A DNA stretch of 64,000 bases, taken from NCBI RefSeq assembly GCF_045037415.1, contig NZ_CP173439.1. One strand, given 5' to 3'. Under the pieces are notes generated by a model that was given only the letters and a program-made list of their open reading frames with translations, did not search any database and was not told the origin of the DNA. The position numbers and the translations under genes are program-made. Below, in pieces: positions 40,720 through 42,357 of the stretch (the stretch's first letter is position 1; each line of letters starts with the position of its first letter). Origin of the DNA: Escherichia coli (GTDB lineage Bacteria; Pseudomonadota; Gammaproteobacteria; Enterobacterales; Enterobacteriaceae).

Positions 40720-40983
40720 GGGGTTGTACGCCGGAAACGCCGAAATTTCCGATACAGCGAATTTGTTGATTTTTGAAGCATGTTTGGCAGGTTTTGACGT
40801 GTACGTTTATGGTGCAGTAAGTGAGAATTTATTCGTACCAGCCATATGATACGTTACGGGCAGTGATTTTTCGCGCTAGACAGCTATTTCTTTGCTGTCC
40901 GGTTAACTGTGGTCTTACGTACAGGTTGCCGAGCATAAAATTTGTGCCTCCCGGAAATTTCGGCGTTTCCGGCGTACAACCCC
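40720..40983. mobile_element. MITE-like element bounded by perfect 32-bp inverted repeats
   Basis: GGGGTTGTACGCCGGAAACGCCGAAATTTCCG at 40720-40751 and its exact reverse complement at 40952-40983; no coding capacity between them. Confidence 0.55.
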
Positions 40984-41060
40984 AAATAAATTCAATTAAT
41001 TACCTAAACAAGGTGAGACTTTTAGAGGAAATGAGCGCGGAACCCCTCTTTCCACTGGTG
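40984..41060. repeat. left arm of about 70-bp inverted repeat flanking phd-doc
   Basis: AAATAAATTCAATTAATTACCTAAACAAGGTGAGACTTTTAGAGGAAATG… is the imperfect reverse complement of 42131-42205. Confidence 0.6.
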
Positions 41061-41304
41061 GCGCAGGAAAGTTAACCGGCTGCCACCATGGGATGATGTG
41101 TAAACCGTGCAGGCATGTTTTTACGGGATGATGCTTTCATTTGGATATAGAGAATTATTGTACGTTCAGCACAACAAACTTAATACTAATGTATGCATAC
41201 ATTAGCATTAACTACACATTTAAGACATTAACCATTAATAATGTGTATTATTACACAATATTACCCATCAGGAAGCACGTCGTCAGTATTAGAAAAAAAT
41301 TACA

Positions 41305-41355
41305 AACGCTCGCCGCAGGCCCAGCGACCGAACGTTAGTGAGCGAGGAAGCGGAA
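41305..41355. repeat. hairpin-forming repeat, copy 2 (CGCTCGCCGCAG…GCGAGGAAGCGG)
   Basis: Related to the copies at 30441 and 50609; lies 3' of doc. Confidence 0.5.
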
Positions 41356-41465
41356 GAGTGTCAGGTCTGAATTGAGCACATACGCCAGAAATTATATAGT
41401 AAAAAGATATATGATTTTTACATTGCTCAGTAGATTGTAAAATGCTGCTGATTGGATATCTATAT

Positions 41466-41852
41466 CTAATTTAGAATAATGGCTTTAAGATGGTCAGAAA
41501 CCATCTTCCAGTTATATTCTCCTGTTGCAGCATTCAAAGCGATAATTTGCATTTCATCAAACGAAATACGTGAACTAATAATATGTACACCATTCCGTTT
41601 TAAAAAAACCTGTGCAACAAACAAGGCTGTTCGCTTATTTGCATCGTTGAAAATGTGACCACGAGCAATAGCAACTAAATACACGGCAGCCAGATCCATA
41701 ATATCTGTCACACCTTCATAATGATACATGTTCAAAACACGATGAATGATCGCGTCAGCGCGACCGGGTTCTGGCATACCCGCCACGCCACCATCACGCG
41801 AAATCAAGCGGTCATGAAACTCAATCACTTCCTGTGAACTAACGAATTTCAT
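41466..41852 (-). CDS. doc: Doc (Fic-family) toxin
   Basis: 128-aa ORF matching P1 Doc, including the Fic-like motif HIFNDANKRTAL. Confidence 0.85.
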   Translation of the reverse strand: MKFVSSQEVIEFHDRLISRDGGVAGMPEPGRADAIIHRVLNMYHYEGVTDIMDLAAVYLVAIARGHIFNDANKRTALFVAQVFLKRNGVHIISSRISFDEMQIIALNAATGEYNWKMVSDHLKAIILN

Positions 41853-42073
41853 CGCTTAGAAAGCTCCGTATAGGCCGTCCCATGACTTTGCATGATCTCA
41901 GCAAACTCAGCATCAAGAGCCGCTTTACGGTATCGTTCAAAAGCGTCTTTATCAACTAGTACAGCCGCGCCACCTTTACGGCGCTGAATCTCAACAGGCT
42001 GATTTTCATCAACCGCCAGCTCGAGCAACGAGGCCAGGTTATCGCGAGCATGGCTATAGTTACATGTAAACAT
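41849..42073 (-). CDS. phd: Phd (YefM-family) antitoxin
   Basis: 74 aa from MFTCNYSHARDNLASLLE… with GAGGAAG ribosome-binding site; C-terminus KAALDAEFA matches P1 Phd; 4-nt overlap with doc. Confidence 0.85.
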   Translation of the reverse strand: MFTCNYSHARDNLASLLELAVDENQPVEIQRRKGGAAVLVDKDAFERYRKAALDAEFAEIMQSHGTAYTELSKR

Positions 42074-42130
42074 AGTGCTTCCTCTTTGAGTTGTACAATT
42101 AAATTGTACAACAGTTCTGTTCAATATGAA

Positions 42131-42205
42131 ATCACCGTAGTAAGGGGGGCGTGCCCATTTCCTCTAAAAGTCTCACCTTTATTATGTAATTAATTGAGTT
42201 TATTT
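42131..42205. repeat. right arm of about 70-bp inverted repeat flanking phd-doc
   Basis: Reverse-complement match to 40984-41060; followed at 42259-42297 by a degenerate copy of the 32-bp IR-like sequence, which is interrupted by IS21. Confidence 0.6.
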
Positions 42206-42357
42206 AGAAAATGTTGCAATTTTAGCATCATTTTTTATTGTTCTTTTTAACCTGAAGTAGGGGGCCGCTTGGAATTCGGAAATTTTCCCACGCTAAGTGT
42301 CAACGCCACGATGTTTGACCGTTATTTGCCATTTTCATGCCCGCTAAGATACTTTCG

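What the first reader, a model, noticed from the sequence alone, without database searches (positions are those of the whole stretch)
40720..42297. phd-doc addiction cassette bracketed by long inverted repeats and next to a MITE-like element
phd-doc (41466-42073) sits between two imperfect about 70-bp inverted repeats (40984-41060 and 42131-42205). Directly outside the left arm is a perfect 32-bp sequence that also forms, with a second perfect inverted copy, a 264-bp MITE-like element with no coding capacity (40720-40983). A degenerate copy of the same 32-bp sequence lies outside the right arm and is split by IS21, continuing on the far side as CGGCGTAGAACCCC at 44428-44441. This looks like a small non-autonomous mobile unit carrying a toxin-antitoxin module, which I have not seen described for phd-doc.
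Basis: seen in the sequence. Interest (0 to 1): 0.55.

Follow-up and report, generated by a model that had tools for sequence, protein, structure and literature searches.

The report
Transposon-end scrapyard around plasmid phd-doc
The repeats around this plasmid's phd-doc addiction genes are real, but they are leftover ends of several Tn3-family transposons and miniature derivatives piled up at a mosaic junction, not the ends of one small mobile element carrying the toxin-antitoxin pair.

Summary
The window is an E. coli IncF plasmid identical here to pVR50B. The repeats exist at the stated coordinates.

- **MITE, 40720-40983.** A genuine 264-bp non-coding Tn3-derived miniature element (TIME type) with perfect 32-bp inverted repeats. 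These match 30/32 the ends of an autonomous 5.7-kb Tn3-family transposon. Copies occur in about 10% of complete E. coli genomes in many contexts. None of the eight copies checked has a target-site duplication.
- **Long arms, 40984-41046 and 42145-42259.** These are terminal fragments (38-bp inverted repeat plus tnpR 3' end) of another Tn3-family transposon. Their outer GGGG tips point inward, toward phd-doc, so they cannot mobilise it. The arms are only 88.5% alike. Each occurs without the other in other plasmids: the left arm with the microcin J25 cluster, the right arm with phd-doc.
- **"Degenerate third copy", 42260-42297.** This is the complete 38-bp end of a different 286-bp miniature element. 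That element is intact in IS21-free relatives, so IS21 did not split a 32-bp repeat.
- **14-mer, 44429-44442.** A separate inverted-repeat remnant.

Verdict: an ordinary mosaic junction of Tn3-family debris around a functional-looking phd-doc. The MITE is an apparently unnamed member of a known kind. Interest is low to moderate.

The parts
40720..40983 (.). 264-bp non-coding Tn3-derived miniature inverted-repeat element, called 'MITE264' here. Its perfect 32-bp terminal inverted repeats are at 40720-40751 and 40952-40983.
   Evidence: Repeat pair: I2. The repeats match 30/32 the ends of a 5.7-kb Tn3-family transposon (L007 322-6032: tnpA, tnpR, ABC-F gene) and the published MITEPsy2/ISPsy30 repeat (PMC3189936). 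Homologous copies at 72-95% identity sit in at least 8 different flanks. No Rfam hit.
40984..41046 (-). Left arm: a 63-bp terminal fragment of a Tn3-family transposon, called 'TnX' here. It comprises the 38-bp inverted repeat (41009-41046) plus sequence up to the tnpR stop codon. The outer GGGG tip at 41046 faces phd-doc, and the interior is cut off by MITE264.
   Evidence: 60/62 identical to the L006 terminus, which lies next to tnpR and is followed by a tnpA N-terminal region.
41047..41139 (-). Inverted duplicate of the 3' end of the plasmid's DUF6404 gene and its downstream sequence (window 35078-35174).
   Evidence: Self-BLAST gives 94.8% over 97 nt (sequence). The same stretch occurs in thousands of IncF plasmids under DUF6404 genes.
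41140..41169 (+). Truncated Tn3-family inverted repeat resembling the left repeat (IRL) of MITESen1. It keeps the inner ~30 of 38 nt, lacks the outer GGGG tip, and its inner end points toward phd-doc.
   Evidence: 96.6% identity to MITESen1 positions 5-33 (MITESen1 sequence from Table S2 of PMC13367494). In L019 a complete 38-bp repeat resembling the MITESen1 right repeat (IRR) sits at the same place. In L021 this point is where homology to the window ends.
41170..42144 (-). phd-doc module: doc 41466-41852, phd 41849-42073, TTGTACA operator-like repeats at 42087-42112, and a 16+16-nt palindrome at 41180-41211.
   Evidence: ORFs. NCBIfam DOC_P1 at 85 bits, and Phd/YefM-like N-terminus. The Fic motif HIFNDANKR is visible in the ORF. 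The module is shared at 96-99.6% identity with at least 4 other plasmid contexts. Palindrome: I6.
42145..42259 (+). Right arm: a 115-bp terminal fragment of TnX. It comprises the 38-bp inverted repeat (42145-42182) plus the last 19 codons and stop of tnpR (minus strand, 42200-42259). The outer GGGG tip at 42145 faces phd-doc.
   Evidence: 107/115 identical to the L006 terminus. It translates to YFRLKRTIKNDAKIATFSK*, the TnpR C-terminus.
42260..42297 (+). Complete 38-bp Tn3-family inverted repeat GGGGGCCGCTTGGAATTCGGAAATTTTCCCACGCTAAG. It is the left end of a 286-bp miniature element, called 'TIME-Y' here, whose remainder is replaced by IS21.
   Evidence: The full element is present in IS21-free relatives L022 3578-3862 and L020 4580-4865. 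A related repeat is followed by a Tn3-family tnpA in L004. About 1400 plasmids carry the repeat.
42298..44428 (-). IS21 copy: istB 42358-43158, and istA broken by a premature stop into 299-aa and 85-aa ORFs. No target-site duplication.
   Evidence: A second copy at 60849-62979 is 99.86% identical and carries the same stop.
44429..44442 (-). 14-nt outer remnant (GGGGTTCTACGCCG) of an inverted repeat of the MITE264 family, truncated by IS21.
   Evidence: One mismatch to the MITE264 repeat, with 0.03 matches expected by chance. Exact match to the variant repeat in L009. The junction with the IS21 end is conserved in plasmids where it is unlinked to phd-doc.

Best explanation
The region is a mosaic junction in an IncF plasmid. 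A functional-looking phd-doc addiction module is hemmed in by remnants of at least four different Tn3-family elements.

**Shown**
- A 264-bp miniature element (MITE264) lies just downstream of the microcin J25 exporter gene.
- Two terminal fragments of a tnpR-tnpA transposon (TnX) flank phd-doc in inverted orientation, with their outer tips facing phd-doc.
- A truncated MITESen1-like inverted repeat lies just left of the module.
- The complete end of a 286-bp miniature element (TIME-Y) abuts the right TnX fragment and is cut by IS21.
- A 14-nt repeat remnant lies beyond IS21.

**Inferred**
- Two related but distinct TnX variants inserted independently on either side of the AT-rich phd-doc segment.
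- Neighbouring miniature elements, using a Tn3-family transposase supplied in trans, then made one-sided rearrangements. These would be intramolecular replicative transposition giving adjacent deletions, or unresolved replicon fusions. They trimmed TnX to 63 and 115 bp and left no target-site duplications.
- The present left block (mcj-MITE264-TnX63-DUF6404 fragment) and right block (phd-doc-TnX115-TIME-Y) were joined at the MITESen1-like repeat.
- IS21 then replaced the body of TIME-Y.
- Deletions that removed phd-doc would kill or slow segregants, because Doc is a Fic-fold kinase that blocks EF-Tu and is neutralised by labile Phd (established for P1 Doc). That selection would explain why debris piles up right at the module's edges.

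The long inverted repeat is therefore a by-product and not a functional pair of transposon ends.
For: - **Anatomy.** Direct reading and homology give the layout above.
- **TnX identity.** In L006 the terminus is followed by a full serine resolvase (MALLGYARVST...) and a divergent Tn3-family tnpA N-terminus.
- **Polarity.** The GGGG tip is the outer end, as shown by tnpR or tnpA positions relative to the repeats in L004, L006 and L007.
- **Arm divergence.** The arms are 88.5% alike, while the left arm is 96.8% identical to L006 and the right arm 93%. The surrounding plasmid lineage is at least 99.6% conserved. A recent duplication is therefore unlikely.
- **Separate histories.** L021 has mcj-MITE264-left arm-DUF6404 fragment without phd-doc. 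L020 has phd-doc-right arm-TIME-Y without the left arm.
- **TIME-Y.** It is intact in IS21-free relatives.
- **Recurring pattern.** phd-doc is bounded by different Tn3-family ends in five contexts: the window, L017, L018, L019 and L020.
- **Target-site duplications.** None flanks any of eight MITE264-family copies. A miniature element with related repeats in L023 does have a perfect 5-bp duplication, ATCGT.
- **Source of transposase.** Autonomous transposons with matching ends exist in E. coli plasmids (117 Escherichia records).
- **Precedent.** Miniature Tn3-derived elements without flanking repeats on plasmids are reported for MITESen1 (PMC13367494).
Against: - The order of events is inferred, not observed. 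No empty sites or intact TnX copies at these positions were found.
- Absence of target-site duplications fits one-sided rearrangements but does not prove them.
- The idea that addiction selection sets the debris boundaries is untested. The clustering could simply reflect Tn3-family preference for AT-rich DNA in plasmid accessory regions.
- In the window and in L019 a MITESen1-like repeat has its inner end toward phd-doc. This leaves room for phd-doc once having been cargo of a Tn3-derived element.
Confidence: 0.8

Rival explanations
1. One reading: the two ~70-bp inverted repeats are the ends of a small non-autonomous transposable unit whose cargo is phd-doc.
For: A 56-63-nt inverted repeat at 88-89% identity does bracket the module. 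Non-autonomous Tn3-derived elements are abundant nearby.
Against: - The arms are transposon termini with their outer GGGG tips facing inward, so phd-doc is outside both ends.
- The block is seen in one flank only, in about 20 near-identical plasmids.
- Each arm occurs without the other elsewhere.
- There are no direct repeats outside the arms: CCCC|AAATA on the left and GAAGTA|GGGG on the right are junctions with other elements.
Confidence: 0.03
2. A composite of miniature elements (TIME-COMP-like). The outward-facing left repeat of MITE264 (40720) and the outward-facing repeat remnant at 44442, or a pair of TIME-Y copies as in L020, once bounded a larger composite that carried phd-doc between plasmids.
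For: - The orientation of the repeats at 40720 and 44442 is correct for a composite.
- In L020, phd-doc plus the right arm lies between an 85-nt inverted TIME-Y fragment and a full TIME-Y, 95% complementary.
- Composites bounded by Tn3-derived miniature elements are documented for resistance genes (PMC4133298; PMC13367494).
Against: - There is no 5-bp duplication (TAATC against GAGAA).
- The junction of IS21 with the 14-mer occurs unlinked to phd-doc in other plasmids, and the IS21-free relative L022 has other DNA after TIME-Y. The two outer repeats were therefore not originally partners.
- No plasmid holds phd-doc between two complete TIME-Y copies (best coverage of a constructed query 88%).
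Confidence: 0.08
3. phd-doc was once internal cargo of a Tn3-family derived element with MITESen1-like ends. The truncated repeat at 41140-41169 is its surviving left end.
For: In the window and in L019 a MITESen1-type 38-bp repeat has its inner end directly abutting the same module sequence, CACAACAAACTTAAT.... Toxin-antitoxin cargo is known in autonomous Tn3-family transposons (PMC7157771).
Against: - No matching right-hand repeat was found in L019 or the window.
- In L017 and L018 the MITESen1-like elements present their outer tips to the module, so the relationship is inconsistent.
- The window has an IRL-like repeat and L019 an IRR-like repeat at the same spot.
Confidence: 0.08
4. The arms are crossover sites of a site-specific inversion switch that flips the phd-doc segment.
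For: The arm sequence is linked to a serine recombinase gene in L003 and L006, and the arms are inverted repeats.
Against: - The homology covers a transposon terminus and the 3' end of tnpR, not a recombination site next to an invertase.
- No recombinase gene is left here.
- All 19-20 plasmids carrying the block are colinear single-piece matches, with none inverted.
Confidence: 0.01

Closest known systems
[quoted passage not shown]
   Same: MITE264 is 264 bp and non-coding. Its GGGG-initiated terminal inverted repeats are nearly identical to those of an autonomous Tn3-family transposon. It is found mainly on plasmids and is often without flanking direct repeats, as reported for MITESen1.
   Different: Its sequence is unrelated to IS101, IMU, MITESen1 or TIME244 outside general inverted-repeat features (BLAST). 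It was not found under a name in the literature searched. No flanked-by-duplication copy or trans-mobilisation was shown here.
MITEPsy2 / ISPsy30 of Pseudomonas syringae (Bardaji 2011, PMC3189936)
   Same: The terminal repeat GGGGTTGTAAGCCGGAACCGCCGAAATTTCCGTC is 30/32 identical to the MITE264 repeat. The same repeat bounds the L007 transposon and occurs in L008.
   Different: MITEPsy2 is 228 nt and pseudomonad. The sequence following the repeat in L008 bears no resemblance to the MITE264 body. MITE264 is enterobacterial.
Toxin-antitoxin pairs carried inside autonomous Tn3-family transposons (Lima-Mendez 2020, PMC7157771)
   Same: A type II toxin-antitoxin module is physically associated with Tn3-family sequences, including a resolvase gene remnant.
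   Different: In those transposons the pair sits inside the element next to res/tnpR, and the toxins are ParE, Gp49, PIN or HEPN, with no Doc listed. Here phd-doc lies outside the transposon termini that flank it.
P1 phd-doc plasmid addiction module
   Same: Same gene order and overlap (phd upstream, a 4-nt overlap). Doc matches TIGR01550 and retains the Fic motif HIFNDANKR. Palindromic operator-like repeats lie upstream.
   Different: It is a diverged homologue on IncF/IncK plasmids, not the P1 prophage copy. Its function was not tested here.

Membership tests
TIME (Tn3-derived inverted-repeat miniature element), for 40720-40983 | Short (about 50-500 bp) and without a transposase or other credible gene | tested here: met
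   The element is 264 bp. It holds only 41-aa and 84-aa ORFs with non-ATG starts that cross its ends. No Rfam family matches.
TIME (Tn3-derived inverted-repeat miniature element), for 40720-40983 | Terminal inverted repeats of Tn3-family type, matching those of an autonomous Tn3-family transposon | tested here: met
   The perfect 32-bp repeats start with GGGG. They match 30/32 both ends of L007 322-6032, whose TnpA scores 845 bits against NF033527 transpos_Tn3.
TIME (Tn3-derived inverted-repeat miniature element), for 40720-40983 | Repeated element present in different genomic contexts | tested here: met
   Matches occur in 536 of 5426 complete E. coli genomes and 431 plasmid records. Eight copies with unrelated flanks were aligned or inspected.
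TIME (Tn3-derived inverted-repeat miniature element), for 40720-40983 | Supporting rather than defining: 5-bp target-site duplication as a footprint of transposition | tested here: not met
   No matching 5-bp flanks in the window, L009-L013 or L024. A different miniature element with related repeats (L023) has a perfect ATCGT duplication. MITESen1 copies without direct repeats are reported.
TIME (Tn3-derived inverted-repeat miniature element), for 40720-40983 | Mobilised in trans by a cognate Tn3-family transposase | not testable with these tools
   This needs a mating-out or trap-plasmid assay. Candidate transposase donors exist in E. coli plasmids.
   The GGGG outer tips at 41046 and 42145 face phd-doc. 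Polarity was fixed from L006, L003 and L004.
   There is only one context, about 20 near-identical plasmids. The arms occur separately in L020 and L021.
TIME-COMP (composite bounded by two TIMEs) | Two copies of a TIME bounding the cargo, with direct repeats outside | tested here: not met
   The window has one MITE264 plus a 14-nt remnant with unrelated history and no direct repeat. L020 has one full TIME-Y and one 85-nt TIME-Y fragment. No full pair was found in PLSDB.
Phd-Doc type II toxin-antitoxin system | Doc (Fic-fold) toxin gene preceded by an overlapping Phd/YefM antitoxin gene | tested here: met
   DOC_P1 TIGR01550 at 85.1 bits against a cut-off of 38.65. The Phd N-terminus is similar to YefM (E 1.4e-7, below that model's cut-off). 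The genes overlap by 4 nt.

The most novel reading that the evidence does not exclude
phd-doc modules of this type are recurrently captured and moved between enterobacterial plasmids by Tn3-derived miniature elements, as composites or as cargo of a MITESen1-like element. The window, L019 and L020 would be decayed examples. This would extend mobilisation by such composites from resistance genes to addiction modules, and would add Doc to the toxins linked to the Tn3 family.
Probability: 0.12. Interest if true: 0.5.

Novelty: new member of a known kind. Interest (0 to 1): 0.25.

Why it matters
The practical value is for annotation. A 264-bp miniature element matches in roughly one in ten complete E. 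coli genomes, and a 286-bp one (or its ends) occurs in well over a thousand plasmids. Both are unannotated in the records examined. Both mark rearrangement junctions next to a microcin cluster and an addiction module.

Recognising them explains otherwise puzzling inverted repeats and breakpoints in IncF plasmids. The observation that phd-doc is bounded by different Tn3-family ends in five contexts gives a concrete, testable case of an addiction module acting as a deletion-resistant anchor in a plasmid's accessory region. It does not reveal a new kind of mobile element.

Tried and rejected
- **Target-site duplications.** I looked for 5-bp duplications around MITE264 in eight contexts, around TIME-Y in L020 and L022, around both IS21 copies, and around the putative composite 40720-44442. 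None was found.
- **Full TIME-Y pair.** I searched PLSDB with a constructed query (full TIME-Y, phd-doc, full TIME-Y) for an intact composite. The best hit was L020 itself at 88% coverage.
- **State before IS21 insertion.** I searched right of IS21 for the pre-insertion sequence. Every plasmid with that DNA also carries the IS21 end.
- **Species-representative genomes.** I scanned with the two inverted-repeat cores spaced 180-210 nt apart. Only 2 loci matched, because matching is exact.
- **Literature by sequence.** Only the MITEPsy2 paper matched. No name was found for MITE264, TIME-Y or TnX.
- **MITESen1 identity.** I considered that MITE264 might be MITESen1 and rejected it after reading the MITESen1 sequence.
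- **Other readings.** An invertase switch was rejected because all carriers are colinear and the homology is to a transposon terminus. A structured RNA was rejected because Rfam gives no hit. The strong DNA fold (z = -8.7) is simply the terminal inverted repeats pairing.
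Full report
**Context.** The window is an E. coli IncF plasmid. Positions 40600-42300 are 100% identical to pVR50B (NZ_CP011136) and to about a dozen other plasmids. Upstream lies the microcin J25 lasso-peptide cluster, whose ABC exporter gene ends at 40688.

**Checking the observation.** doc (41466-41852) and phd (41849-42073) are on the minus strand and overlap by 4 nt. Doc scores 85 bits against NCBIfam DOC_P1 (cut-off 38.65) and shows the Fic motif HIFNDANKR. The Phd N-terminus resembles YefM.

The 32-bp inverted pair at 40720-40751 / 40952-40983 is perfect, with no match expected by chance. 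The long inverted repeat is real. The tool reports 56 nt at 89% (40984-39 / 42150-42205). With a 2-nt indel it extends to GGGG tips at 41046 and 42145 (54/61 identical). The 14-mer beyond IS21 is at 44429-44442, one base off the stated position, and has one mismatch to the repeat tip where 0.03 matches are expected by chance.

**What the 264-bp element is.** It has no credible ORF and no Rfam match. Its repeats begin with GGGG and match 30/32 both ends of a 5.7-kb transposon in a Klebsiella plasmid (L007 322-6032). That transposon encodes a 1010-aa TnpA (845 bits to NF033527, Tn3 family), a serine recombinase and an ABC-F gene. The same repeat is published as that of MITEPsy2/ISPsy30 in Pseudomonas syringae (PMC3189936).

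Transposons close to L007 occur in 117 Escherichia plasmid records, so a transposase source exists. Sequences matching the element occur in 536 of 5426 complete E. coli genomes, 349 of them with at least 80% of it. They also occur in 431 PLSDB plasmids, and on the E. coli B/BL21 chromosome. Identity ranges from 72 to 100%.

Eight copies with unrelated flanks were inspected. None has a 5-bp target-site duplication. A different 257-bp element with related repeats in a metagenome-assembled genome does have a perfect ATCGT duplication (L023). The element is unrelated in sequence to IS101, IMU, MITESen1 and TIME244. I file it as an apparently unnamed Tn3-derived miniature element (TIME).

**What the long arms are.** The right arm and the sequence up to 42259 match, at 92-93%, the terminus of a Tn3-family transposon that I call TnX. 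In L006 this terminus is followed by a complete serine resolvase gene (MALLGYARVST...), an intergenic region and a divergent Tn3-family tnpA N-terminal gene. Positions 42200-42259 on the minus strand encode the last 19 residues of that resolvase, YFRLKRTIKNDAKIATFSK*. The left arm is the same terminus (60/62 identical to L006), cut after 63 bp by MITE264.

In the Tn3 family the GGGG tip is the outer end. This is confirmed here by the gene positions in L004, L006 and L007. In the window both GGGG tips (41046 and 42145) face phd-doc. The module therefore lies outside both transposon ends, and a transposase acting on them could not move it.

The arms are only 88.5% alike, whereas the plasmid lineage is at least 99.6% conserved. 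They are not a recent duplication.

The arms also have separate histories.
- L021 (IncK2/Z) has the mcj cluster, MITE264, the left arm and the DUF6404 fragment at 100% identity, but no phd-doc. Homology ends at about 41150.
- L020 has phd-doc, the right arm and the next element at 99.6% identity, but no left arm.
- The full block occurs only in about 20 near-identical plasmids, always colinear.

**What lies between and beyond the arms.**
- 41047-41139 is an inverted duplicate of the 3' end of the plasmid's DUF6404 gene.
- 41140-41169 is the inner 30 nt of a MITESen1-IRL-like 38-bp repeat (MITESen1 sequence from PMC13367494 Table S2). L019 has a complete IRR-like repeat at the same spot.
- 42260-42297 is a complete 38-bp Tn3-family repeat. 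In the IS21-free relatives L022 and L020 it runs on into a 286-bp miniature element (TIME-Y) with a second repeat. A related repeat precedes a Tn3-family tnpA in L004.

This last point refutes the idea of a degenerate 32-bp copy split by IS21.

IS21 (42298-44428) has no duplication and a broken istA. It has a twin at 60849-62979. The junction of its other end with the 14-mer occurs in plasmids where it is far from phd-doc. The 14-mer exactly matches a variant MITE264 repeat (L009), so it is a separate remnant.

**phd-doc elsewhere.** The module is shared at 96-99.6% with at least four other contexts. Each is bounded by different Tn3-family pieces.

| Locus | Left of the module | Right of the module |
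|---|---|---|
| L017 | IS101-like miniature element | MITESen1-like element |
| L018 | MITESen1-like element | Tn3 tnpA 3' fragment |
| L019 | MITESen1 IRR-like repeat | not identified |
| L020 | 85-nt inverted TIME-Y fragment | TnX end plus full TIME-Y |

Some of these ends point toward the module and some away from it. No context showed a clean pair of ends with duplications.

**Most likely mechanism.** Independent TnX insertions occurred on both sides of an AT-rich addiction module. Neighbouring miniature elements then made one-sided rearrangements, either adjacent deletions by intramolecular replicative transposition or unresolved replicon fusions. These leave no duplications and trimmed TnX to stubs. 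Two blocks fused at the MITESen1-like repeat, and IS21 later replaced the TIME-Y body. Post-segregational killing by Doc would select against deletions that enter the module, so debris accumulates at its edges. The anatomy is shown. The order of events and the role of selection are inferred.

**Comparison with known systems.** Miniature Tn3-derived elements, and composites bounded by them, are known (PMC4133298, PMC13367494). Toxin-antitoxin pairs inside autonomous Tn3-family transposons are also known, but with ParE, Gp49, PIN or HEPN toxins and not Doc (PMC7157771). Here phd-doc is not inside any intact element.

**Verdict.** The repeats are real. The mobile-unit interpretation is not supported. 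The MITE is a new member of a known kind, and the region is an ordinary, though unusually dense, mosaic junction.

Noticed in passing
window 36900-40688: Microcin J25-type lasso-peptide cluster (lasso B2 protein and ABC exporter) lies immediately upstream. The junction of its exporter gene with MITE264 is conserved in an IncK2/Z plasmid (L021). It is also conserved in avian-pathogenic E. coli plasmids, where the MITE is cut at 40889.
   Followed up: partly
window 42298-44428 and 60849-62979; also 50362-50386: There are two IS21 copies in the same orientation, 99.86% identical, both with the same premature stop in istA (299-aa and 85-aa ORFs). Neither has a target-site duplication. A 25-nt IS21 end remnant lies at 50362-50386.
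   Followed up: partly
L003 4001-4630 (pAA plasmid of E. coli O104:H4 C227-11): A 630-bp 'mini-TnX': two inverted TnX repeats enclosing a tnpR that lacks the catalytic-serine N-terminus. It is annotated as 'recombinase family protein' with a non-canonical start.
   Followed up: partly
L002 2952-3250 (E. coli B / BL21 chromosome): The right-hand repeat of TIME-Y abuts a MITE264 copy that lacks its first ~12 nt. The same two miniature-element families also sit side by side on a chromosome, next to transposase pseudogenes.
   Followed up: partly
L021 3669-3870: Another ~200-bp miniature element with MITEPsy2/Tn4401-like repeats (GGGGTTCTAAGCCGGAATCCCAGAAAATTCCGTCAC) is nested in the MITESen1-like repeat. 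It is followed directly by an IS101-like repeat.
   Followed up: no
L023 7491-7747 (metagenome-assembled Proteobacteria bacterium UBA2383): A 257-bp miniature element with repeats related to those of MITE264 but an unrelated body, flanked by a perfect 5-bp duplication, ATCGT.
   Followed up: partly
window 41180-41211: A 16+16-nt near-perfect palindrome (TTAATACTAATGTATG/CATACATTAGCATTAA) sits at the left edge of the phd-doc module, conserved in L019 and L020. The L020 breakpoint lies exactly at its start. Its function is unknown.
   Followed up: no
window 42260-42297; L020 4580-4865; L022 3578-3862; L005 5002-5207: The 286-bp TIME-Y element, or its ends, matches in well over 1000 E. coli, Klebsiella and Shigella plasmids at 90-95% identity. 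It is unannotated in the records examined, and I found no name for it in the literature searched.
   Followed up: partly
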